Shown here one piece after another: positions 34,462 to 46,107 of a stretch of 62,274 nucleotides of DNA (within the stretch, counting starts at the first letter, position 1; each line of letters begins with the position of its first letter). The translations under genes and the position numbers were made by a program. The notes below the pieces were generated by a model. It was given only the letters and a program-made list of their open reading frames with translations. It did not search any database and had not been told where the DNA came from. Source of the DNA: an uncultured virus (IMG/VR IMGVR_UViG_3300050202_000023) (Duplodnaviria; Heunggongvirae; Uroviricota; Caudoviricetes); the IMG/VR virus record IMGVR_UViG_3300050202_000023; one strand, given 5' to 3'.

Positions 34462-35106
34462 CTATATGGTTTTACCATAGTCTTCGTTATAAAATGCTCT
34501 AGCACAATGGGTATTTTTAAACAACTCTGCCACATCAGACTCAATTAATCTACCAGCAAAAGAAAGGTAAGGATTAAGTATCAAAGCATTACCTATAGTT
34601 TCGTAAACACCAACATCTTTTAGTTTTGATAAAATTGGTTTAACCTTATTGATGGACACATCAAAGGCTCTCATGTAGTCGTTTAGTGTAGATCTATTGT
34701 TTAGACCCGAAATAACATTCTCTTTACCTGATAAATGGGATAATGACATAGCTGCCCTAAACTCAATTGGGGTTAGGCTTTTAAGTAAAAATCTCATAAC
34801 ATTGTTGTTAGTGTACACATACCCTGTACTGACAATAGAGGTATATCCTTCAGGGAATCCTAATTTAGCATTGGAAGAAAAGTAGTCAACTATTTCCTGA
34901 GTGTGATTAAACCATTCACCTCGATAGTGGTACTTACTAAACTTTTGATGTAATAATTTCTCATCTTCCCTACTTCCATCCATTATATATTCAAGGTATA
35001 GTTCGTTTGGGTGTCCAGTCTGTAAAGACCCAAACCTCTTTTTAGGGTTATTACTGTATCCTATTTTACACTTACTGTTTTGAAGATCAGTTACTAAGTA
35101 AATCAT
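34462..35106 (-). CDS. GIY-YIG (T5orf172-like) domain fused to RepL-like wHTH
   Basis: IYLV..KIGYSNNPKKR..LQTG..E..LH..GEWF; C-terminus KLKDVGV...ILNPYLSFAG. Confidence 0.75.
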   Translation of the reverse strand: MIYLVTDLQNSKCKIGYSNNPKKRFGSLQTGHPNELYLEYIMDGSREDEKLLHQKFSKYHYRGEWFNHTQEIVDYFSSNAKLGFPEGYTSIVSTGYVYTNNNVMRFLLKSLTPIEFRAAMSLSHLSGKENVISGLNNRSTLNDYMRAFDVSINKVKPILSKLKDVGVYETIGNALILNPYLSFAGRLIESDVAELFKNTHCARAFYNEDYGKTI

Positions 35107-35597
35107 ATGGTTGAATCGGTTTTAATGACAACGTTAGTTGGAAACTGTTTTATTCGGCTACCTCTGTAAAAGTGATCCGGGTTTAACCAGTAAACCTCTT
35201 TGTGAGTAGTATAGTGTATAAACCCATATCGAATCAGCTCCTTAATAGCTTCTGTATAAGTGTTAACAGAAGTAATACCGTTCTCTTTCATATACCTTGG
35301 CTTATTTACACAGATATAGTCTTTGTTTGTTTCTGTTTCATAAAGCAGCCACAGATAGAGTCTTTGAGCTTTATTGGTAAATCCTGATACAATTAATCGG
35401 GTGCTGCTACAAGTATATAATTTAACGGGAATGGAAGACTCCGTTAAAACCTCTACAGGCACGAGTGTACCATCAGAGTCCTGTACATAAGCTTTGCTTG
35501 GGTTAAACTTATAAGCAGGTATTGATAAAGAAGTCAGGTAAGGATTAACCCCTAATTTCCTTAGCTGATCTTCGTTTGGCTTGGTATATTTTGGCAT
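35103..35597 (-). CDS. RepL-like replication initiator/wHTH protein
   Basis: AIKELIRYGFI...VYWLNPDHFYRGSR; likely start MPKYT. Confidence 0.65.
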   Translation of the reverse strand: MPKYTKPNEDQLRKLGVNPYLTSLSIPAYKFNPSKAYVQDSDGTLVPVEVLTESSIPVKLYTCSSTRLIVSGFTNKAQRLYLWLLYETETNKDYICVNKPRYMKENGITSVNTYTEAIKELIRYGFIHYTTHKEVYWLNPDHFYRGSRIKQFPTNVVIKTDSTI

Positions 35598-36276
35598 AAA
35601 AGTAGTTATTTCTATCAAAGTTAATCAAATCATTGACAGATTGCAACTGGCATGACAGAAATAATGAAAATATTGTCAAATCCTTGAAATACAAAATAGC
35701 TTGTAACTAACTGTGTATCAGTTTCTTATAGAGGTTTTTTCACAAGCAGAAATGTGTAGTATAGTTTTTATATACACATTTTATCTTTCTCAAAAACTCT
35801 TATAATTAGCTGAATATTAATTAGTTATAGACAAATCTACGTTTCATGAATTTGACAATCTTTTATAAGGTAAAAGTTGACCAATTTACCAAATAATGTT
35901 TGGTTTTGGTTAACAACTACGGTTTAAGTTAAGTGCCTGAGTGTCAGTCGGGTATAAATTGGGTTAAGAGTGAGGTGAGTGTCGGTCACGATGAATAGCA
36001 CCTGATTCAACCCATTTTACCATCACTCAAAAACTAAGGATTTAGTTATATATAGCTTTAGTATCTACTCCTTAAACAAGCACAATCATGTATACATACA
36101 TAATTCTAAGCTGGGGAACTAACACTCCAATAATTGCATCAAGTGCTACAGCTAGTGAATTGTAGCACTGTTACTTATCATAGCTTGACTATCGTTGGTT
36201 TATAACCAAGTAAGTACCAACTCAGTGGGTCATGATTTACCACGTTAAATAATTCTCACGTTAACCAACCATACCC

Positions 36277-36492
36277 ATGCTGCTAGTAAAGCTGTTACAA
36301 AGTAAAGACTTGATTCTTACTGCTTATGAAGAAGTAGAGAATCCTGTATGGGTTGATGCTAGCTATGCCAAGTATGCGCTTGCTAAAGTGTCTGAGATCA
36401 ACAAGTACTTAGGTACAGACTTGTCTCCAGATGAGTTGGTTGGTAAAGTGTACGAAACACAGTCAGCTTATGGCTATGGGGATACTTACTAG
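36277..36492 (+). CDS. hypothetical early protein
   Basis: ORF with an A/C-rich leader. Confidence 0.55.
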   Translation: MLLVKLLQSKDLILTAYEEVENPVWVDASYAKYALAKVSEINKYLGTDLSPDELVGKVYETQSAYGYGDTY

Positions 36493-36889
36493 GAGCATTT
36501 AACTCATTATAAGTATAAAGTCATACAGGTAGTCATTCCTGTTGAGTAGCTTCATTACATAATCCTGAATTGATTGAATGTCAGGTGAGTTTGTACGTAT
36601 CTCTATAACGTTCACATTTTTTAACTTAGTTAACAATTTAACCAATTAAAACCAGTGAAACAGAACATTAAAAACCCGGCAAAGAATAAGAAAGCTCTTA
36701 GAGTGGCTAGGTTAAAAGCTCGTCCTGTAGAGGTTAGAACTCCTGAGCAGCAATTAGCCGTACTTGACCAAAGACTTGGATTTGCTTTAGGAGCTGTTCG
36801 TGAACGTATCAAGCTTTTTAAGCAAATTACCTTGGATTAACACGAACCTATTCACTTAAGTACTTGTTACTTAGCAAACTAATCTTATT

Positions 36890-38308
36890 ATGGAACAAAT
36901 AAAGTTTGGTTCAATTGTAGAACTGGACATGTGTCGGGGTGCAAACACACCGTACAAGGAATGGCTCAAAAACCGGGGCATTTTACCGGGTGAAAAGTAC
37001 AAAGTAAAGCACTTGATGCAAACTTCAATTGCTTTGGAAGGGGTAAAGGGCTACTTTAATGTTAAGTGGTTCAAAATAACTACACCAGAACCAGCTAAGC
37101 CCCAAGTTGAAGAAGTTATCTTTAATGAAGACGATGTTGTTGAGCTGAACACAGACTATATACCAAATAAACGAGACGCTGACTATCTTGCAAGTCATGA
37201 CATAGTTCCCGGGAAAAAGCTTGCTATAATAGCTGTTGACGGAGTAATTCTAAGATTTGCCAACAAGTCTATAAGCTTTATTAAAGACCGGTTTAAGTTG
37301 TCTGATAAACCTGTGTTTAAAATAGGTGACCAAGTACGGTGTATTGGAGATACGGAAACATTTAGCTCTAATTATAAGTGGCTAAAAGAAGATGGTATTA
37401 AGATTGGTGATATACTTACCATACATCATGTATCTGAAGATGACGGTAGACTTTTCTTTGAAGATAAGATATATTACCAAGAGACTGTTAACTTTGAACT
37501 TGTAGTTACTTCTGAAACGGTTAAGCCAGCATTCAAAGTTGGTGATAAGGTACGTTGTGTTAGTAATAAACGGGTTCATGCCACTGATGATTGGTTAAAA
37601 CCTGCTAATATTAACATTGGTGATATTTTAACTATTGAAAAAGTAGTATCTGATAACTGGCTACGGTTTGAAGGTAAACCCTTCAATCAGGAAGCAATTA
37701 ATTTTGAGCTTATCACTCCTAAACCAGTTAAACCTGTATTTAAGGTTGGAGACACAGTACGTTGTATTAGTACTGAAAAACCAGTCAATGCTAGTAAAAA
37801 CTGGTTAGAGGATGATAAGATTAAAGTTGGGGATTTGCTTACTATAAAAACGGTAGAAAGTGATGGTTGGTTACGGTTTGAGGGTAAAGATTACTATCAA
37901 GCACCTGTTAGCTTTGAGCTTGTTCCTGAAGCTGAGCCAGTTGAACCTAAGTCTGTAGTTGATGACAAAGTGTTTACTGTTGGAGATTTGGTTGAACTTG
38001 ACCCGAAATGGTCTAATCGAGATGATTACTGGCTTAACAAAGGCGGTATTACCAGTACTAGTAAGTTGGCAATAACTGGTGTGAAGGACGGACTGGTAAC
38101 TGTAGCTGGCAGTAAACAGGAGTATTTTAAATACCGGTTCAGACTTGTTAAACCTGTTGTTGAAGAGACTACTAAGTTTATTTTTGTTTCGAGGGACTTA
38201 TTCTTTAAGATTATGGCTAAACAGGGACTACGTTTGCTAAACTCAGAACTTCGTGAAACGGAGTGTTTAGTCTCCGAAGAGTTATATCAGAAGTATAAAA
38301 ACCTTTAA
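36890..38308 (+). CDS. tandem-repeat protein (~7 SH3/KOW-like units)
   Basis: repeated FK(I/V)GD.VRC...WL....IKIGDILTI..V...L.FE.K..Q...FELV. Confidence 0.8.
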   Translation: MEQIKFGSIVELDMCRGANTPYKEWLKNRGILPGEKYKVKHLMQTSIALEGVKGYFNVKWFKITTPEPAKPQVEEVIFNEDDVVELNTDYIPNKRDADYLASHDIVPGKKLAIIAVDGVILRFANKSISFIKDRFKLSDKPVFKIGDQVRCIGDTETFSSNYKWLKEDGIKIGDILTIHHVSEDDGRLFFEDKIYYQETVNFELVVTSETVKPAFKVGDKVRCVSNKRVHATDDWLKPANINIGDILTIEKVVSDNWLRFEGKPFNQEAINFELITPKPVKPVFKVGDTVRCISTEKPVNASKNWLEDDKIKVGDLLTIKTVESDGWLRFEGKDYYQAPVSFELVPEAEPVEPKSVVDDKVFTVGDLVELDPKWSNRDDYWLNKGGITSTSKLAITGVKDGLVTVAGSKQEYFKYRFRLVKPVVEETTKFIFVSRDLFFKIMAKQGLRLLNSELRETECLVSEELYQKYKNL

Positions 38309-38676
38309 CCAATCAAGCCATGCAGCTTATCAAACGAGTAATTACCAAGTTGTTCAAGAANNNNNNNNNNAAGTAGTACCTGTAAGTCAGGGTGACATAC
38401 AGAAGTTTAGTGCTTGCTACTAAAGTTTAACCCTTTAAATACACACACAGATATGGAATCCATGCAGATCCCCAGCCCTAAAACGTGTCTTACCCAGCTT
38501 AAGCTGGCTATTAAGGATTATTTAGCAGGGCAACTTAGTTTCTACTGTTTAACCGAAATCATTTTCGGTTACTGTGGATTCTTCGATGGTTTGTACTTCA
38601 CAAGTCTGTGTGGTACTATAAGGGCAAAGGTTATCGGTAATCAGCAGATCATGTTTTGTTTCTGCTAAACGATATT

Positions 38677-38711
38677 CCCGGTGGTTTTGAACGTTTGTTC
38701 AGACTACCGGG
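38677..38711 (+). terminator. hairpin before the ncRNA array
   Basis: cccggtggttttgaac...gttcagactaccggg. Confidence 0.5.
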
Positions 38712-38716
38712 TTTAC

Positions 38717-38994
38717 TATTAGTCTGATGAAGAAGTCATACAGCATTCAAACTCTATCTAAACGGAACCAAGCTGACTTCTGTTACAGATTAATAAGTGG
38801 CTCTTGATTTAGAAGAAGACATACAGCAGTTTACAGACAGCTAATTGTTTACTGGCTTAAAAGCCTGTCTTCTGAAATCAAGAGTAATGGTATTGATGGT
38901 CTCATACAGCAACGTAACTCTATAACTACGTTGGTTCGAGAACAGGGGTGTAGTCTAACAAACTATGTCACAACCTGAGACCTGTTATATACCA
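38717..38994 (+). ncRNA. array of three stem-loop RNAs with invariant CA-UACAGCA motif (Y-RNA-like candidates)
   Basis: units 38717-38795, 38801-38884 and 38888-38994, each with covarying inner and outer stems; lies upstream of the TROVE-like gene. Confidence 0.7.
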
Positions 38995-39041
38995 AATTGT
39001 GCATGGAATTGTGTTCTATGCCTCTGTTCTCATTAAACTCG

Positions 39042-39076
39042 AGGGGCATCAGTTAATTCTGGTGTCCCTTATTTTT
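39042..39076 (+). terminator. terminator/attenuator between array and TROVE-like gene
   Basis: aggggcatcag-ttaatt-ctggtgtccct then attttt. Confidence 0.55.
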
Positions 39077-39099
39077 AACTTATAACCAACAAAGAAACT

Positions 39100-40485
39100 A
39101 TGAAAACCACATTCAAAACAGCAATGGGTAATACCGGTCTTACCGCTAATGGAGCTAACACGTTTACGTCTAGTCTGGACAAAAACGTAGACATGTTTTT
39201 CTTAGCCGGGGCTAGCCGAAATATGGATTCAGAAACCATTTTGACCCTGTTTCAGGATGCTTATGAAGAAAACTCTGATTTAGCTGTTCGGATTCTGCNN
39301 NNNNNNNNTCTGCTATGGTCTAGAGATATTCGTGGTGGTGCTGGTGAACGACACTTCTTTAGAACTGTATACCAGTGGTCACATGAAAATTCTCCTGCAT
39401 CAACTTACTGGCTTACTATGTTGGCTGCTAAATATGGGTCATTCAAAGACATTATTGTGTCTGAGAAACCTAATAATGGCAATCTTTCTCTGTTCTACCG
39501 TTTACTGGTAGAAGACAAGAATGGACTTGCTGCTAAATGGTTTCCCCGGAAAGGGGTATGGTTTAATGCCATGCTCAAGTTTACGGGGTTATCGGCTAAA
39601 GCTCTTCGGACACTACTAGTTTCTCTGTCAAATACGGTGGAACAGAAAATGTCCAAGAACGAGTGGGCTAGTATCTCATACAAGGGAGTTCCGTCCCAAG
39701 CTATGAATAAGTACCGGAAAGCATTCTATCGGAATGACCAGCTACGGTTTGGTCAGTTCATTGATCTGGTTAATGAAGGCAAGACTACACTGAATTCGGG
39801 AACTCTGTTTCCTTATCAGTTATATCAAGCTTTTAACAGACATGAAAACGAGGATGTAATCCGGGCTCAGTGGAGCCAGCTACCAGACTATATTACTAAT
39901 GACGATAGTTATGTCGTCTTAAGTGACGTGTCTGGATCAATGACGGGTCTACCAATGGATATTTCAGTGTCTCTTGGTGTATACCTGTCAGAACGGTCTA
40001 AGATTGAGGCTTTCAAGGACATAGTGATTACATTTGAAACTAATCCGCAGTTTGTGGAGCTTAGTGGAGATGTGATTTCTAGGTTTAGTCAACTTGTACG
40101 GGCTCCTTGGGGTGGTTCTACAGACTTGGAAGCAGCGTTTGATTTGATTCTGAATAGAGCTATGATGCATAATCTTGCTCAGGATCAAATGCCAAATAAG
40201 CTGATCATTGTAAGTGACATGGAGTTTAATCAGGCTACTGGTGGATATACCAATTACCAGTCTATACAAGCCAAGTTTACACAAGCAGGGTATTCTGTAC
40301 CCCAAGTTGTATTCTGGAATGTAAATGGTAGAGTTGGAAATGTTCCAGTTTTGGCTGATCAAGCTAACGTAGCTCTGGTATCTGGTGCATCACCAGCAAT
40401 AATGTCCAGTGTGTTATCGGGTCAGGATTTTACCCCAAAGGGTATTATGCTCAATACGGTAATGACTGAGCGTTATAACTGGTAG
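39100..40485 (+). CDS. DUF2828 TROVE-like + vWA domain protein (Ro60-related architecture)
   Basis: RDIRGGAGER, AAKWFPR, LFPY; MIDAS DVSGSM..., WGGST, IIVSDMEF, VFWN. Confidence 0.88.
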   Translation: MKTTFKTAMGNTGLTANGANTFTSSLDKNVDMFFLAGASRNMDSETILTLFQDAYEENSDLAVRILXXXXLLWSRDIRGGAGERHFFRTVYQWSHENSPASTYWLTMLAAKYGSFKDIIVSEKPNNGNLSLFYRLLVEDKNGLAAKWFPRKGVWFNAMLKFTGLSAKALRTLLVSLSNTVEQKMSKNEWASISYKGVPSQAMNKYRKAFYRNDQLRFGQFIDLVNEGKTTLNSGTLFPYQLYQAFNRHENEDVIRAQWSQLPDYITNDDSYVVLSDVSGSMTGLPMDISVSLGVYLSERSKIEAFKDIVITFETNPQFVELSGDVISRFSQLVRAPWGGSTDLEAAFDLILNRAMMHNLAQDQMPNKLIIVSDMEFNQATGGYTNYQSIQAKFTQAGYSVPQVVFWNVNGRVGNVPVLADQANVALVSGASPAIMSSVLSGQDFTPKGIMLNTVMTERYNW

Positions 40486-40885
40486 GAATAAACGTTTTGA
40501 GGGTACCGTATAAACCCTCAATTTACTTTTTAACTAACTAGGTCCATGCAGACTGAAATACTAACAAGTGAATCCTTGATTGCTTTACTAACTGATGTAC
40601 AGGGGTGGCTAATTGACCATGAACACACGTACACCGTATTGTCAATAGCCACAAACAATCTGCCCCATCAGTACATTGCAACAATTACTTACGTATAACT
40701 TTTAACCGAATAATAACATGAAGACTAAGCTAATAAAAGCTGTCTACTTAACTGAGCTTGAAATGCTTATTCGAGACTGGTATATAGAAGAAAAAGTCTA
40801 TGACAAGATTCAAAGAATTCTCATAGATAAAGTCAGCACAGGATTCACAGCAATGATTGACTATAAACCTTAAACTCATTTAACT

Positions 40886-41110
40886 ATGGTCGTTTTAAAA
40901 ACTGAAGCACAGGTAAAATCATTTTTGAAACGTCATGGTAAAAGTGACTATAACTCCGTTACCTATGATATTGGTAGTGCTTGGGTAGATGCTTTAGCTA
41001 CAGCAGTTGAGGGTGATAAAGTGCTACAATGCACAACAGTTAGTAAGTTCTGGGATGATCACGAGACATTCACTAGAATAATAGCTGTTATACGGCATAG
41101 GAAGAAGTAA
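40886..41110 (+). CDS. hypothetical protein
   Basis: 74-aa ORF with typical leader. Confidence 0.55.
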   Translation: MVVLKTEAQVKSFLKRHGKSDYNSVTYDIGSAWVDALATAVEGDKVLQCTTVSKFWDDHETFTRIIAVIRHRKK

Positions 41111-41117
41111 TTCTTTC

Positions 41118-41928
41118 TAATACTAGACATAGCAATATGTCTTCACTGTTGGACGAGACAGTATTACCGAAATGCTAGGTCACTTGGTATTAGTACAAAG
41201 GTGATTCCCTTGGTAATAAGTAGAAAATACAATGTCCAGTTATACTAATCACTTTCTGTCAAAAAGAGATATTTTACGATGTGCTACCATTAGTCGTGCT
41301 GACAAGAAATGGTCTTAATGTACAACGGTCAACTATACTTGTGGTGTTGACATTTTATTAACTTTTAAACTACTGTTTGAATGAAGACTAGACTATAGTA
41401 GTCAGAAGACTACTAACCTCACTTTTGTAGAGCCGTTTTGGGGCTGTGGGGATAAGTAACTAAATTAATGCTGGACCAAAAAGCTAGTTATAATGGCTGT
41501 CATAAATTGACAACTACTCATAAGGTAGTCAATGTAGTAAAAATCTACCATTAATTTAGTGAAACCAATTCTACAACTGGTAACAGAATAATATTATCCA
41601 TATTAGGAAGAATCTGTGGATTTATAACTTATGGATAATAAGCTTAAACTTATTCACAGACGTGGGAAACACGTATTATTTATGATTGATCACATAGATA
41701 ATTAGAATAAGTTGACTAATAAACTCCTAAACTAGTCAATATTAAAAGTATTGATGAAAACTACATATATGTGTTAAATTTGACCTGATGTACTTTTGCA
41801 TACACTACGGGATAGTGATACTATGTGTAGAGAATAATACAGCGCAGGAAAAGCTAAGTGTGTAGAGTTGAAGTACTAACAAAACCCCTCGTGGATAAGC
41901 ATCTGTGATGTTAGTATAGGAGTTTATT
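41118..41928 (+). ncRNA. large structured non-coding RNA candidate (~810 nt)
   Basis: no ORF of 60 aa or more; many hairpins; perfect long-range 12-bp helices 41459-41470/41549-41560 and 41718-41729/41917-41928; strand inferred from context. Confidence 0.65.
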
Positions 41929-42316
41929 TTTATTTGATTTTAAGCAACTAAATGATATAACTATGCTAGTTTTAACTTCAATCTATTTTGGTATTTGTTT
42001 GTATATTACAATAATATCGGTATTACGGTTTATTAGTGCAGCAGTAACTAGAACAGATTTAAAAGGCCCAGAACTTATTTTTATTACTGTACTACCTTCA
42101 ATTTCATGGGCAGTATTTTATTTTATAACTTACTAAACACATGACAGATGACCGGTATTTAGAATTGCTAAGAGGGGCTGTAGCAGGTATAGATATACTC
42201 CAAGATGAAAGAGGAGAGTTTCAGGCTAGATTTGATGCAACGCTCAAGTTTATAGAAGACTGGAAAGCTAATGAAAAAGCTATAAACACTGTAGATTAAT
42301 AGTCAACTTAATTGAG

Positions 42317-42359
42317 TAGACTTTGAGCCCCTGCGGGGCTTGAGTCTACGTTTTTTTTA
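42317..42359 (+). terminator. intrinsic terminator
   Basis: gtagactttgagcccc-tgc-ggggcttgagtctac then long T-tract. Confidence 0.75.
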
Positions 42360-42378
42360 TCCTTAAACATACACACGA

Positions 42379-42789
42379 ATGAAAAGTAAACTAATAAATA
42401 ACTACGGATTTATTCTAAATGCTACTATAGTTTTTGTATTAGCAGGTGCAATAAATTATCTCTTAGAGTCAAATATAGACAAAGCTAAGCATGTTGAATA
42501 TCTAGCATGGATGTTAGTTATTGCTGTACTCCTTCAGATGCTTAACCTTGTTTTAGGTTCTGTACAATTATACTTAGCCCAAGTTAAAGATAATTCAAAG
42601 TTAAGTAGTACAGATGACGATGAAATTATTGGTTATGCTCATGTGTATATAAACCAAGTGGGTGAAGGGTACAGTGGTGGGCAGTTGTTTTCAACAAAAA
42701 CTGCTTTACCTTATATAGATATTGAATCTCCAAAGGTTAAATGGGTTGTCATTAAAAAAAGTATGCTTCAAGATACAGGAAAACAGTAG
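42379..42789 (+). CDS. membrane protein (2 TM)
   Basis: two hydrophobic N-terminal segments. Confidence 0.55.
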   Translation: MKSKLINNYGFILNATIVFVLAGAINYLLESNIDKAKHVEYLAWMLVIAVLLQMLNLVLGSVQLYLAQVKDNSKLSSTDDDEIIGYAHVYINQVGEGYSGGQLFSTKTALPYIDIESPKVKWVVIKKSMLQDTGKQ

Positions 42790-43466
42790 AAATCATGAAA
42801 AAACTAACACCAGAAGAGGTTGAGATTTATTTTGATCAAGTACGGGAAGCTCTAATTACTAACAAAGACTGGAGAGCTGGTCAAGCCATGTTCAACGTAC
42901 TACACAAAACTAGACTTGATTTAGCTGAATCTGTCAGAGGTACTACAGATGATCCATTTTATAGTAACCAGCGTATTAAACCATTTCTACAGCACATATT
43001 GGATAAGGATGCTCAAGCAAGTTTCCATCCTGTAGTAGCTGCTGTATTTCTTTAAACTAACTTACTAACATGGAAAGATTAATTGAAGCTATAAACGATG
43101 GTGGGTATACAAATGCAATTATGTATTTGCGAGATAAGAATTCTACTGAAGAAGAGTACAACCAGTTAGAAGAACATTTATTGAATTCTTCTTATTCAGA
43201 AGAAATGAAAACCTACTATGCCGATTTAATTGATTTTTATCGAGAAAAAAATAATTTCCAATTATGACAGATAGAGAATATACAAAAGATTACTCAAAGG
43301 GTGAACAGTTAACAGGAATGTCTAACTGTAAAAGCATGATTGCTCACTTAACCCGACCTGTTGAAAGTATGTCATCAAAAGGATTTGGTGAGGGTAAGTT
43401 TGATAAAGCTAAGTGGATAAAACGAATACGAGGTTATTTTAAATCACAAACCAAACAACTAATAGA

Positions 43467-44090
43467 ATGAATAATTCAATTGAATTCTGGAAACAGTTTA
43501 TTAAGTCAAACTTGGAGCACAACTTAGATTTTTTAGTAAAAAACTCCATTAAAGACTTTCATTTTAAAGGACTTAACTATATCTGTTTTCAGTTTTTACC
43601 ACATCTGACAATTAGGCTTTATATTATTGAGCCACAAGAGCAACTTGACACAAAGAATGTTAATATTCATAATCACTTATATGATTCTCAGATACTGGTG
43701 TTGACAAACACACTGGTAAATAATGTTTACAAACAAGTACCGGGAGATGAGTACAATCATTATTACTTAACCAGTGCTTTAGCTGTAGGTAACGCATCGG
43801 GAAAGATTAAACTGGATTCACTTGGTAAAACTGGTCTGGAGCTAGTTCGGTCTATTACGTTAAACCCGGGGAATACTCATTTTCAGGATTCTGAAGAAAT
43901 TCATAATGTTGAAAATGATGTGACCAAGCTTACTGCATTTATGGTATTTGAGTATCCTACTGTCAAAGACAATTCTATTTTGTTTACCACAAAAGACTAT
44001 ACAGATACTATACCAACCCCCAATGCGTATAACAAGTATACCCATTACGAAATTACTAGACTGTTAACTAATTTACTGAATGTATTATGA
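43467..44090 (+). CDS. cupin/cysteine-dioxygenase-like DSBH protein
   Basis: NIHNHLYD..SQIL and L.PG.TH...EIHNV metal-binding His pattern. Confidence 0.6.
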   Translation: MNNSIEFWKQFIKSNLEHNLDFLVKNSIKDFHFKGLNYICFQFLPHLTIRLYIIEPQEQLDTKNVNIHNHLYDSQILVLTNTLVNNVYKQVPGDEYNHYYLTSALAVGNASGKIKLDSLGKTGLELVRSITLNPGNTHFQDSEEIHNVENDVTKLTAFMVFEYPTVKDNSILFTTKDYTDTIPTPNAYNKYTHYEITRLLTNLLNVL

Positions 44091-44844
44091 CAAACAGAGA
44101 TTACTACTATGATGGTAATACTATTTCAGATACAGCAATAGACTTTGCTCAGTGGTGCGGTACTTACTTTAAATTATCAAAGGGTGTTTGGATAAGAAAG
44201 TCAGACCCTTTTTTATTTCGAAAAGAAGGTATACCAAAACATTTAATGAGAGTATATGCAATACATGAACTTTGGCAAATTTGGTTAGATTTAGACTACA
44301 ATGACAAATAAAGTATACTATCAGTCAAAAAATCCGGTAGCTTGTATAGCATTTGCTAACTGGATTCAAAGTATTCTATTTGGTAGAACTATGGACGGAT
44401 TTTATGTAAGCTTAAATGCTGAATCCCAAGCACTATCTGCAAAAGAACTTTACCAAATTTGGGAGGATACTGAAATTGATCCGTTTTTTACTAGATAACA
44501 TAAACGGAAGTGTATGATAACGTCAAAAAAAAGTAACTATTTACTATATGCGTTAACAAACTGGATTTAGTTAGGTGGTTACGTTATAAAACGGTATAGA
44601 CCTAATCTTAACTTAACTACGTATTTATTTATTCACAAAGGACGGTCGTATCATTACAAACCATTTGATGAAAACAATAAAGATTTAATTTTTGAGGGGT
44701 TTGTTGTAATAAAAGAATACGTTAAACGTACAGAAGATCAGATTATTTTAGAAGCTGGTACAAAAGATATAGCTAATAAGGTAGAAACAGCTATGAAGTT
44801 GTACGGAGATATTGCACTTAATATAAACTTAGCAAAAACTAAAA

Positions 44845-45216
44845 ATGGATAATACAAAAATTCCTTTCAATCTTAAACGAGTTAAAGCCGGTGATCCTGT
44901 AATTACTCGGAGTGGGGAAGATTACCTTTACGGAGCTCATAATCCTGATGCAGGTCCAAACTATAAAATAACTGGCTGGATAGACGGTGTTGCACGAGGT
45001 CATACAGAGTCAGGTGACTACTACCCACCTAAACCAAGTAGCTATGACTTGTTTATGAAACCTACCCGAGTTACTAAGTATATTAACTTATTTCGTCAGG
45101 GTTCACCGGAATTTTTTACGTCTGGAGATGTTCATGATGATTATGAAACAGCTATGAGACTTGGTAAATACTCAGATCGTTATTTTACAACAATTCCAAT
45201 CGAGTTTGACATGTAA
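44845..45216 (+). CDS. hypothetical phage protein
   Basis: PFNLKRVKAGDPVITRSG...YDLFM pattern seen in phage accessory proteins. Confidence 0.6.
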   Translation: MDNTKIPFNLKRVKAGDPVITRSGEDYLYGAHNPDAGPNYKITGWIDGVARGHTESGDYYPPKPSSYDLFMKPTRVTKYINLFRQGSPEFFTSGDVHDDYETAMRLGKYSDRYFTTIPIEFDM

Positions 45217-45723
45217 ATTATGCTTAAAAAGTATTTTCACCTGACAATTCAGAGGGGAACAAACTTGCCGGAAACAATTTACTTTAAAGGTACTTCAGTT
45301 AGTACCTTTTTAGTATTGTTTGCTAAAGTACTTCCCACAACTACAGTAATACTCTACTCAAGAGAAATAAATCCTTTTGAATGGTTAGAAGTTGAAAACG
45401 ACCCTATTCTTAGCTTTCTTATTTTTGATCCACCTAAATTAAACAAAGATTAACTATGTGGCATATTGCAATTCCCTGTTTAATTATATACCTTTTACAA
45501 CTTTTCATGCTTTTTGTTATACTTGATCATGACTATAAAGCAGTAAAGTTTCCAAAAGTGTATGGTAACCCTTTAATTACTCATAAAAAGCATGTTGTAA
45601 TAATGTTAATACCTTTTGGATTTTTATTCTTTACCTTTGTTAACATTGTCCAAAGCTTTAAAAAGTTTAAAGAAAACTTAAAAGACTTGTTTACTTATAT
45701 GCAGACTAAATTAAAATAGTCAA

Positions 45724-45808
45724 GCCCGGTGAGTAACCGTCCCGCTTCTAACGGGAACTACAATGGTGAATGGACAGTCACGAGGTTCGATTCCTCCACC
45801 GGGTACCA
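45724..45808 (+). tRNA. atypical tRNA-like gene, anticodon TCT (Arg), 8/4 acceptor/T stem, no D-arm
   Basis: gcccggtg/caccgggt acceptor + ACCA; gagg-TTCGATT-cctc T-arm; tcccg-CTTCTAA-cggga anticodon arm. Confidence 0.75.
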
Positions 45809-45825
45809 AATAAAATATTATAAGT

Positions 45826-46107
45826 ATGAGTGTTACTAAAACAGCTTTACAACTAGACTACTTATATTATGGTAACCAGTTAGAAAAGCAAAACCCACAG
45901 CTAAACTTCAAAAATCATTGCTACTGGAGAATAGCTAATGATAATGCTTGTAGTGCTAAGTGGACAACTAAAGTTAAAACCCCGTACTACAAAAATGCTT
46001 CAAATGAACGACTAGAAAAGTCAGTAGCTTATTTAAAAGCAATGATTAATGACTCTAGTACAATAAATAAACTAAATAAACAATCCTTAAAGTTAAGGGG
46101 TAAATAA
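45826..46107 (+). CDS. hypothetical protein (HC.WRI..DNA...W family)
   Basis: NHCYWRIANDNACSAKW...LNKQSLKLRGK. Confidence 0.6.
   Translation: MSVTKTALQLDYLYYGNQLEKQNPQLNFKNHCYWRIANDNACSAKWTTKVKTPYYKNASNERLEKSVAYLKAMINDSSTINKLNKQSLKLRGK

What the first reader, a model, noticed from the sequence alone, without database searches (positions are those of the whole stretch)
41118..41928. ~810-nt ORF-free, densely paired, pseudoknotted region: large ncRNA candidate
Seen: a GCAA-tetraloop hairpin (41125-41142) inside taatact/agtatta, and tagtagtc/gactacta. A 12-bp helix (41459-41470/41549-41560) closes a junction with tgtca/tgaca, actac/gtagt and gtag/ctac arms. The loop of helix 41592-41602/41630-41640 (tctgtggat) can pair with attcacaga at 41652-41660. 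The loop of ttgacta/tagtcaa pairs over 12 bp with 41917-41928. GAA/AGUA E-loop-like motifs occur near 41169-41195. Known: phages carry large ncRNAs of this size (GOLLD, ROOL). Inference: a member of such a class or a new one. It lies about 600 nt downstream of the TROVE-like gene.
Basis: partly seen in the sequence, partly recalled or inferred. Interest (0 to 1): 0.85.

Follow-up and report, generated by a model that had tools for sequence, protein, structure and literature searches.

The report
Orphan structured non-coding phage region
An 852-base stretch of a phage genome truly codes for no protein, and its last 490 bases pair with themselves far more than chance allows, but it has no relative anywhere, so whether it makes a large RNA remains unproven.

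Summary
Window 41111-41962 is ORF-free in all six frames. By a codon model it is non-coding: 10 of 10 windows score below 0, against 0.4% of held-out gene windows.

Only 41450-41935 folds better than shuffles: z -4.1 on the + strand, -3.4 on the - strand. It holds three perfect inverted repeats of 11 bp or more, against 0.18 expected. The 5' third is at chance (z -0.9). The two "pseudoknots" compete with the main helices.

No Rfam family matches, even at E<=10. This includes ROOL, GOLLD, YrlA and tRNA. No homolog was found in GenBank phages, IMG/VR, 29 metagenome or viral loci, or SRA.

Best reading (0.4): a + strand structured RNA of four closed modules, ending in a helix plus U-tract. Rivals are a DNA-level palindrome element or a functionless spacer.

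Side result: the neighbouring gene has a Ro60 fold. Its conserved RNA companions lie upstream of it. They are tandem stem plus ACAGCA-box units with covarying stems, found in 14 of 20 loci, and they resemble Dictyostelium Class I RNAs.

The parts
41111..41962 (.). ORF-free, non-coding gap of 852 nt between two clusters of small genes
   Evidence: no ORF; 10 of 10 150-nt windows score -1.5 to -15.7, against a 5th percentile of +4.7 for held-out genes; an independent contig of 1909 nt spans 40411-42319 with no difference.
41111..41449 (+). 5' third. Holds the GCAA hairpin (41125-41142) and the 8-bp hairpin (41398-41417). Not more structured than chance.
   Evidence: z -0.89, 19 of 100 shuffles fold as well; window 41101-41400 has z +0.17.
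41459..41560 (+). Module 1: a 12-bp perfect closing helix plus a 4-bp helix, enclosing three hairpins
   Evidence: z -3.67, 0 of 200 shuffles as good, MFE equals centroid.: - strand z -2.64. pair I2.
41592..41640 (+). Module 2: an 11-bp perfect helix with an inner 5-bp hairpin
   Evidence: pair I12. (MFE and centroid).
41647..41713 (+). Module 3: a 9-bp closing helix enclosing two hairpins. One is a weak terminator-like hairpin at 41660-41674.
   Evidence: MFE and centroid..
41718..41928 (+). Module 4: arms of 17 nt (16 of 17 complementary, 12 perfect) closing about 177 nt with three to four inner hairpins
   Evidence: pair I1..
41929..41941 (+). T-rich run (10 T of 13) directly after the module-4 helix. 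A terminator-like arrangement, 21 nt before the next start codon.
   Evidence: Read. Not listed by the terminator scan, because the loop is too long for its rule.
40497..40530 (+). Terminator-like hairpin (8-bp stem, 9-nt loop, T-rich tail) after the Ro60-like gene. Likely upstream limit of the transcription unit.
   Evidence: Read. Not listed (loop longer than 8 nt).
42322..42344 (+). Strong intrinsic-terminator-like hairpin followed by a T run. Likely downstream limit of the transcription unit.
40546..41110 (+). Three small ORFs (50, 51 and 74 aa) between the Ro60-like gene and the gap. They score as coding and have no family match.
41963..42299 (+). Two small ORFs (57 and 52 aa) after the gap. 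They score as coding.
39100..40485 (+). Ro60-like (TROVE ring plus vWA) protein gene, DUF2828/DUF7788, phrog_850. Contains a masked N run.
   Evidence: Fold of a 47%-identical homolog matches Ro60 structures.
38728..38986 (+). Context: three tandem small-RNA units at 83-nt spacing. Each has a closing stem of a different sequence followed by a conserved CATACAGCA box. A terminator at 39041-39070 follows. These are the conserved RNA neighbours of this gene family.

Best explanation
The 3' 490 nt (41450-41935) most likely specify structured RNA on the + strand, the strand of all neighbouring genes. It would be made within the early transcription unit bounded by the terminator-like hairpins at 40497-40530 and 42322-42344.

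The RNA folds into four successive closed modules, each shut by a 9-12-bp helix. It ends with the module-4 helix followed at once by a U-rich run, which could terminate or attenuate transcription before the two micro-genes that follow.

It sits in a part of the phage genome given over to RNA biology: a Ro60-like protein gene and three small-RNA units lie 2 kb upstream. I infer that it acts as RNA, as a scaffold, decoy or processing substrate, and not as a protein-coding or purely DNA element.

Shown:
- It is non-coding.
- It has an excess of long helices.
- It has a modular nested fold.
- It has a modest + strand advantage.

Inferred:
- That it is transcribed.
- Where the RNA ends.
- Any function.

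The 5' 340 nt appear to be ordinary spacer.
For: - Non-coding in six frames.
- Folding: z -4.11, 0 of 100 shuffles as good. Three inverted repeats of 11 bp or more against 0.18 expected, 0 of 1000 shuffles, unique among 122 tiles.
- The + strand beats the - strand in 3 of 3 sub-windows: -3.67 vs -2.64, -4.35 vs -3.30, -4.11 vs -3.36. The MFE fold has 18 G-U pairs on + and 10 on -.
- Each long helix encloses further hairpins, and the MFE and centroid folds agree for modules 1-3.
- A helix plus T-run ends the region 21 nt before the next gene.
- Calibration: a near-threshold ROOL RNA in a Listeria phage scores only z -2.36 (+) and -1.53 (-) by the same test.
- Context: loci with this gene family carry tRNA arrays, tmRNA, YrlA-like RNAs, the new units and, in one phage, ROOL.
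- Precedent: phage K makes two abundant intergenic long RNAs of 635 and 1154 nt (PMC9241854, passages read).
Against: - No homolog exists anywhere, so there is no covariation.
- No Rfam match.
- No transcript evidence.
- The signal is mostly perfect A-T-rich Watson-Crick palindromes. It is as strong with DNA parameters on both strands (z -4.85 and -5.33).
- GC of the structured part is 0.305, below the window's 0.364.
- z near -4 occurs in 7 of 80 local windows, including inside genes.
- No convincing promoter was found.
- The nearest relative phage (61% identity in a 731-aa protein) has neither this region nor the Ro60-like gene.
Confidence: 0.4

Rival explanations
1. Functionless spacer. The region is decayed or imported DNA, for example remnants of lost genes or small inverted-repeat insertions. 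Its palindromes are young and not selected, and it is merely read through as part of the operon.
For: - It is an orphan in every search.
- The neighbouring micro-genes are also orphans, as in fast-turnover accessory regions of phages.
- Helix arms are perfect or near perfect with few G-U pairs or mismatches, as expected of recent duplication-inversions.
- Modules 1 and 4 look like units with terminal inverted repeats of 17 nt, spanning 102 and 211 bp.
- The 5' third shows nothing above chance.
Against: - No codon-like composition remains in any frame, so it is not a recently broken gene.
- No second copy of any arm or unit occurs in the 62-kb window.
- No flanking target duplication is visible.
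- Phage genomes are compact: 852 nt is the longest ORF-free gap of the window.
- Three long helices in one place are unique among 122 tiles.
Confidence: 0.27
2. A DNA-level cis element. The A-T-rich palindromes act as double- or single-stranded DNA, as a replication origin or priming site, or as binding sites for a phage protein.
For: - Nearly strand-symmetric signal, strongest with DNA parameters (z -4.85 and -5.33).
- Perfect Watson-Crick arms of 11-12 bp.
- GC trough of 0.25-0.29 over 41500-41800. Its 300-nt minimum ranks 10th lowest of 2318 windows.
- Precedent: in phage K the most A-T-rich 450-bp non-coding region was untranscribed and was proposed as the origin (PMC9241854, passage read).
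Against: - No repeated short word or iteron is enriched after correction for the number of tests.
- Lower GC troughs exist elsewhere. One is the 658-nt non-coding region 35619-36276 beside a RepL-like ORF, a better origin candidate.
- The palindromes are nested around further hairpins rather than being simple paired sites.
- The + strand folds better than the - strand with RNA parameters in 3 of 3 sub-windows.
Confidence: 0.18
3. The gap holds several very small protein genes (under 45 aa) that ORF lists miss.
For: The flanks are full of genes of 50-74 aa. ATG-started frames of 24-28 aa exist, for example at about 41232-41318.
Against: All 10 windows score as non-coding, with a best value of -1.5. 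The flanking micro-genes score +3.4 to +17.3.
Confidence: 0.05
4. A divergent member of a known large RNA class (ROOL, GOLLD, HEARO, OLE) or a Y RNA/YrlA partner of the Ro60-like protein.
For: - Size and phage setting.
- It lies on the same strand and within 4 kb of a Ro60-like gene, the criterion used for YrlA (PMC4201824, passages read).
- ROOL lies about 1 kb from a homologous gene in a Listeria phage.
Against: - No Rfam match at E<=10, even with 563 nt given alone.
- No tRNA-like hit.
- No GNCGAA box in the region.
- No blastn similarity to the Listeria-phage ROOL.
Confidence: 0.03

Closest known systems
ROOL RNA (Rfam RF03087) and GOLLD RNA
   Same: Hundreds of nucleotides long, multi-junction, found in phages and prophages, and without neighbouring-gene logic. 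A ROOL match (90 bits, gathering score 99.1) lies about 1 kb from a homolog of the neighbouring gene in Listeria phage 805405-1.
   Different: No covariance-model match here. No tRNA genes nearby, whereas ROOL and GOLLD are often next to tRNAs (PMC5737381, passage read). No conserved nucleotides can be defined. The helices here are long perfect A-U-rich duplexes.
Phage K long non-coding RNAs lnc001 and lnc002 (PMC9241854)
   Same: Intergenic, 635 and 1154 nt, in a large virulent phage, with no family assignment. They are candidates by position alone.
   Different: Those are shown by stranded RNA-seq to be abundant and lie next to tRNA genes. Here there are no expression data and no tRNA.
Y RNAs / YrlA (Rfam RF02553), partners of Ro60
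   Same: Encoded on the same strand within 4 kb of a Ro60-type gene. Built on a helix formed by distant segments.
   Different: Y RNAs are 80-130 nt, carry a GNCGAA-type box near the 5' end, and often have a tRNA-like domain (PMC4201824). None of these features is present.
A-T-rich untranscribed origin region of phage K (PMC9241854)
   Same: A non-coding stretch of several hundred bp with GC well below the genome mean.
   Different: That region has the lowest GC of its genome and has direct repeats. Here it ranks 10th lowest of 2318 windows, and no repeats are enriched.
Dictyostelium Class I RNAs (Rfam RF01414). Closest known to the upstream units, not to the target.
   Same: The units at 38728-38986 and in 13 other loci share four features with Class I RNAs. 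These are a short terminal stem of variable, compensating sequence; a conserved box next to its 5' strand with core UACAGCA(A) (some copies read CUUACAGCAAUUA, as in the Rfam consensus); a variable interior; and a UGU-type tail after the 3' strand (PMC7919456, passages read).
   Different: Rfam scores are 19-28 bits against a gathering score of 41.5. The units are 50-140 nt, against 42-65 nt. They are phage-encoded, in tandem, next to a Ro60-like gene. Class I RNAs are reported as unique to dictyostelids and bind an RRM protein. Common descent is not shown.

Membership tests
ROOL (RF03087) | Match to the family covariance model (about 581 nt, six multistem junctions, three pseudoknots) | tested here: not met
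   No match at gathering score or at E<=10. Positive control: the same tool finds ROOL at 90 bits in L039.
ROOL / GOLLD | Frequent position next to tRNA genes, in phages or prophages | tested here: not met
   The phage setting is present, but there is no tRNA or tmRNA in the whole 62-kb window.
GOLLD, HEARO, OLE, group I/II introns, RNase P, tmRNA | Match to the Rfam model. That these families are in Rfam 15 is recalled, not checked. | tested here: not met
   Searches list no such family. One search finds no tmRNA.
Y RNA / YrlA (RF02553) | Encoded within about 4 kb of a Ro60-type gene on the same strand | tested here: met
   The region starts 626 nt downstream of the gene that ends at 40485, on the same strand. 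A 47%-identical homolog of the gene has a Ro60 fold.
Y RNA / YrlA (RF02553) | GNCGAA(N0-1)G box near the 5' end; tRNA-like domain; length of 80-130 nt | tested here: not met
   No GNCGAA between 41111 and 41962. No YrlA or tRNA model match at E<=10.
   With filters off over the whole window, R2 finds only 38728, 38811 and 38894. Nothing in 41111-41962 reaches E<=10.
Structured non-coding RNA in general | Helices supported by compensatory changes among homologs | not testable with these tools
   No homolog was found. Only the source sample holds the sequence.
Structured non-coding RNA in general | A discrete transcript | not testable with these tools
   No RNA run was available. Only DNA contigs could be laid.

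The most novel reading that the evidence does not exclude
The 490-nt modular element is the founding member of a new class of large phage RNA. It would belong to the same RNA island as the Ro60-like protein and its Class-I-like small RNAs. For example, it could be a scaffold or decoy handled by that ribonucleoprotein, filling in this Bacteroidota-type phage the place that ROOL holds beside the homologous gene in a Listeria phage.
Probability: 0.1. Interest if true: 0.75.

Novelty: new member of a known kind. Interest (0 to 1): 0.36.

Why it matters
On its own the region is one more unassigned structured intergenic stretch in an uncultured phage. It is worth a probe if the phage or its transcripts become available, but nothing can be built on it yet.

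Its value lies in where it sits. The neighbouring gene family (DUF2828/DUF7788, found in 703 GenBank phage records) is a Ro60 look-alike. Its loci concentrate non-coding RNAs.

Working through that context turned up a conserved small-RNA motif with covarying stems, which I did not find described:
- Rfam has no match for it above gathering score.
- Full-text searches for DUF2828 and PF11443 found no RNA work.

If the target RNA is real, this locus would offer a compact phage system with a Ro60-like protein and at least two kinds of dedicated RNA.

Tried and rejected
Homolog searches that found nothing for 41111-41962:
- blastn against 50,697 GenBank phage records at E 1e-5, and at E 10 where only 24 chance hits of 26-42 nt appeared.
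- megablast of 36000-46000.
- blastn and nhmmer against 29 loci fetched through the Ro60-like protein.
- The nearest relative contig G001.
- tblastn with the upstream 74-aa ORF against phages and IMG/VR.
- All-against-all blastn of 13 long gaps from related loci, including a ROOL.
- A single-sequence covariance model of module 1 over 299 kb of loci and two viral records of 162 and 268 kb. L001, L014 and L018 were not held and so were not searched.

Sequencing runs:
- Only the probable source sample holds the stretch, and no RNA holder is listed.
- Laying contigs showed one 1909-nt contig with no variants. X2 and X3 had no cover.

Signals sought and not found:
- sigma-70-type promoters at chance level (27 found, 24 expected).
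- Bacteroidetes-type -7 and -33 boxes, a consensus recalled from memory, at chance level.
- Enriched k-mers or iterons; none survives multiple testing.

Tests that proved uninformative:
- GC enrichment as a mark of structured RNA was dropped. The Listeria-phage ROOL is not GC-enriched either.
- A third-order codon model was too noisy and was replaced by a second-order model with held-out calibration.
- A PDB sequence search with the Ro60-like protein gave no Ro60 hit. The fold search did.

Other:
- Earlier findings: none on this genome.
- No whole genome is held for the window.
- Whether Dictyostelium has a DUF2828 protein, and which three further proteins bind Class I RNA, could not be established from the library.
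- Supplements of PMC4201824 (phage YrlA tables) and PMC7919456 were not opened.

Full report
**Setting.** The window is part of a large tailed phage. Structural genes lie on the - strand up to about 35.6 kb, and early and replication genes lie on the + strand from 36 kb. The best named relatives of a 731-aa protein are Cellulophaga phages at 47-49% identity. The nearest viral contig reaches 61%. Start codons lack Shine-Dalgarno boxes (read). A Bacteroidota host is therefore an inference. No whole genome is held. The window carries two masked N runs, at 38360-38369 and 39298-39309.

**The observation.** Between 41111 and 41962 no ORF of 30 aa or more starts on either strand. The longest stop-to-stop frame is 45 aa.

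I trained a three-periodic second-order Markov model on 35 long genes of the window and tested it by leave-one-gene-out.
- Held-out gene windows: mean score 13.4, 5th percentile 4.7, and only 0.4% at or below 0.
- The gap: all 10 windows score -1.5 to -15.7.
- The flanking 50-74-aa ORFs: +3.4 to +17.3.

So the gap is truly non-coding and is not a freshly broken gene. An independent assembly of the probable source sample spans 40411-42319 in one contig with no difference.

**Is it more than chance?** Only partly.
- Whole gap: z -4.03 on the + strand and -3.70 on the - strand.
- 41111-41449: z -0.89, with 19 of 100 shuffles as good.
- 41450-41570: z -3.67 on + (0 of 200 shuffles as good; MFE equals centroid) and -2.64 on -.
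- 41580-41935: z -4.35 and -3.30.
- 41450-41935: z -4.11 and -3.36.

Three perfect inverted repeats of 11 bp or more occur where 0.18 are expected, and 0 of 1000 shuffles reach three. Only the tile over this region reaches three among 122 tiles of the window.

As background, 7 of 80 300-nt windows between 36 and 48 kb reach z of -3.9 or lower, some inside genes. As calibration, a ROOL RNA from a Listeria phage scores only -2.36 and -1.53.

**Anatomy.** In the MFE and centroid folds the 3' 490 nt form four successive closed modules:
- 41459-41560: a 12-bp helix closing a junction with three hairpins.
- 41592-41640: an 11-bp helix.
- 41647-41713: a 9-bp helix with two hairpins.
- 41718-41928: a 12-bp helix, with arms complementary at 16 of 17 positions, closing about 177 nt.

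A T-rich run at 41929-41941 follows directly, 21 nt before the next gene.

A 12-bp duplex inside a 14-nt hairpin loop is sterically implausible (my inference). They are alternatives to the main helices, not demonstrated tertiary pairs.

**RNA or DNA?** With DNA parameters both strands give z -4.85 and -5.33. The signal is therefore mainly Watson-Crick palindromy.
- For RNA: the + strand is better in 3 of 3 sub-windows and has 18 G-U pairs against 10. The nested modular layout and the terminal helix plus U run also point to RNA.
- For DNA: GC is 0.25-0.29 over 41500-41800, and the 300-nt minimum ranks 10th lowest of 2318 windows.
- Against an origin here: no iteron-like word is enriched. Deeper A-T troughs exist, one of them beside a RepL-like ORF at 35103-35618.

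**Known families.** Rfam 15 gives nothing at gathering score for the window. It gives nothing at E<=10 for 40900-42100, and only six chance hits at E 6.8-9.6 for 41400-41962. There are no tRNA or tmRNA genes and no GNCGAA box.

**Homologs.** None was found. The searches covered GenBank phages, 29 loci fetched through the neighbouring protein from IMG/VR and metagenomes, the nearest relative contig, flanking-ORF searches, a covariance model of module 1, and SRA, where only the probable source sample holds the stretch. Covariation therefore cannot be tested.

**The neighbouring gene and what really accompanies it.** ORF 39100-40485 matches DUF7788 (E 1e-44), DUF2828 (E 2e-27) and phrog_850, annotated 'RNA-binding protein'. 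An AlphaFold model of a 47%-identical homolog (mean pLDDT 78.5) matches full-length Ro60/TROVE structures:
- 9kop, E 7.5e-11, TM 0.58.
- Thermus phage Ro60 9l5y, E 1.9e-8.
- Deinococcus, Xenopus and human Ro60.

The 'TROVE-like' label is therefore sound.

In loci of this family I noticed ORF-free gaps directly upstream of the gene. In the window, 38728-38986 holds three units at 83-nt spacing. Each has a closing stem of a different sequence next to a conserved CATACAGCA box, and a terminator follows.

I built a covariance model from 6 units, then a second from 26 hits. The second model finds 35 matches at E<=0.05 in the loci, all on the gene's strand. Of these, 34 lie upstream of the gene and 1 downstream. 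In the window it finds only the three units (filters off).

Of 20 sources with at least 200 nt of upstream sequence, 14 have at least one hit at E<=0.01 upstream of the gene. L001, L004, L005, L006, L008 and L011 do not. I left out L002 and L022 as duplicates of L006 and L003, and partial loci without upstream sequence.

The 8-bp stem is paired in 92.9% of cells, against 34-47% when the partner is slid. It has 68 double-change cells, a count that 0 of 500 shuffles reach. The caveat is that the alignment was fitted to the model, and many rows helped to build it.

Named phages carry the units too:
- Listeria phage 805405-1: three units in an unannotated gap just upstream of the gene (E 2.5e-5 to 1.5e-4).
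- Mycobacterium phage Gabriela: one unit just downstream of its 'Ro-like RNA binding protein' (E 0.0024).
- Klebsiella phage KP2025 and a Felix O1-like phage: weaker matches (E 0.03-0.06).

The box differs from the GNCGAA box of Y RNAs (PMC4201824).

Architecture and core sequence resemble Dictyostelium Class I RNAs. Shared features are a terminal stem with compensating changes, an 11-nt CCUUACAGCAA box next to the 5' strand, a variable interior, and a CUGU tail (PMC7919456, passages read). Rfam RF01414 scores are 19.1, 28 and 25 bits, against a gathering score of 41.5. This is a lead, not membership.

The same loci also hold:
- tRNA arrays and a tmRNA.
- Over-long tRNA-like elements with 56-76-nt inserts in the anticodon loop, just downstream of the gene.
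- YrlA-like matches below threshold in KP2025.
- A ROOL match of 90 bits in the Listeria phage.

These loci are thus RNA hubs. That raises the prior that the target is an RNA. But neither model R2 nor any Rfam family touches the target.

**Verdict.** The region is a real, non-coding, palindrome-rich feature whose 3' 490 nt are more structured than chance.

| Reading | Probability |
|---|---|
| + strand structured RNA | 0.40 |
| Functionless spacer | 0.27 |
| DNA-level element | 0.18 |
| Micro-ORFs | 0.05 |
| Known RNA class | 0.03 |
| Something else | remainder |

Precedents exist for both main readings in phage K, which has abundant intergenic long RNAs and an untranscribed A-T-rich origin (PMC9241854, passages read).

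Noticed in passing
window 38728-38784, 38811-38876, 38894-38986 (+); also L003, L007, L012-L015, L017-L020, L023-L025, L039: Tandem small-RNA units of 50-140 nt, directly upstream of Ro60-like (DUF2828) genes. Each has an 8-bp terminal stem of variable, covarying sequence, an invariant ACAGCA box next to the 5' strand, and a UG at the 3' foot. There are 1-7 units per locus at E<=0.01. They occur in 14 of 20 sources with upstream sequence. Of 35 hits in the loci, all are on the gene's strand. No Rfam family covers them.
   Followed up: yes
window 38898-38984; L025 5100-5173; L041 3856-3909; L018 5475-5879: These units resemble Dictyostelium Class I RNAs (RF01414) in stem, box (some copies read CUUACAGCAAUUA), variable interior and UGU tail. 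Scores are 19-28 bits, below the gathering score of 41.5. Class I RNAs are reported as unique to dictyostelids (PMC7919456).
   Followed up: partly
L001 6353-6566; L003 6803-6925 and 7156-7293; L006 5271-5388; L007 7576-7872; L025 7453-7577 and 7815-7941: Over-long tRNA-model matches of 104-138 nt just downstream of the Ro60-like gene, with a 56-76-nt insert in the anticodon loop. ARAGORN does not call them as tRNAs. They may be tRNA-shaped partner RNAs.
   Followed up: partly
L039 772-1323 (Listeria phage 805405-1, PP101686.1): An unannotated ROOL RNA match of 90 bits (E 3e-17, gathering score 99.1), about 1 kb upstream of the Ro60-like gene, between tRNA-Pro and tRNA-Met.
   Followed up: partly
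L041 4020-4135 and 4170-4272 (Klebsiella phage KP2025): Two YrlA (RF02553) matches below threshold (40 and 34 bits, gathering score 69). They follow two weak ACAGCA-box units downstream of the DUF2828 gene and lie ahead of a tRNA array.
   Followed up: no
L005 252-1655, a homolog of window 39100-40485: The AlphaFold model of this DUF2828/DUF7788 protein (mean pLDDT 78.5) matches full-length Ro60/TROVE structures, including a Thermus-phage Ro60 (E 7.5e-11 to 6e-5, TM about 0.55-0.59). Sequence search against the PDB finds none of them.
   Followed up: yes
window 44499-44838: This ORF-free gap (no ORF of 50 aa or more) scores as coding, +4.9 to +21.8. It is probably a gene with a short or unusual frame that the ORF list misses.
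   Followed up: no
window 35103-36276: A RepL-like ORF (35103-35618, - strand, E 8e-6) abuts a 658-nt non-coding region at the switch of transcription direction. That region is among the most A-T-rich of the window (GC 0.26). It is a candidate replication origin.
   Followed up: no
window 38360-38369 and 39298-39309: Two runs of N. The second lies inside the Ro60-like gene and reads as XXXX in the protein.
   Followed up: no
L008 1972-3264: The match to the Ro60-like protein contains an 852-nt stretch (2109-2960) with no ORF of 50 aa or more under table 11. It may be a broken gene or a phage with a reassigned stop codon.
   Followed up: no
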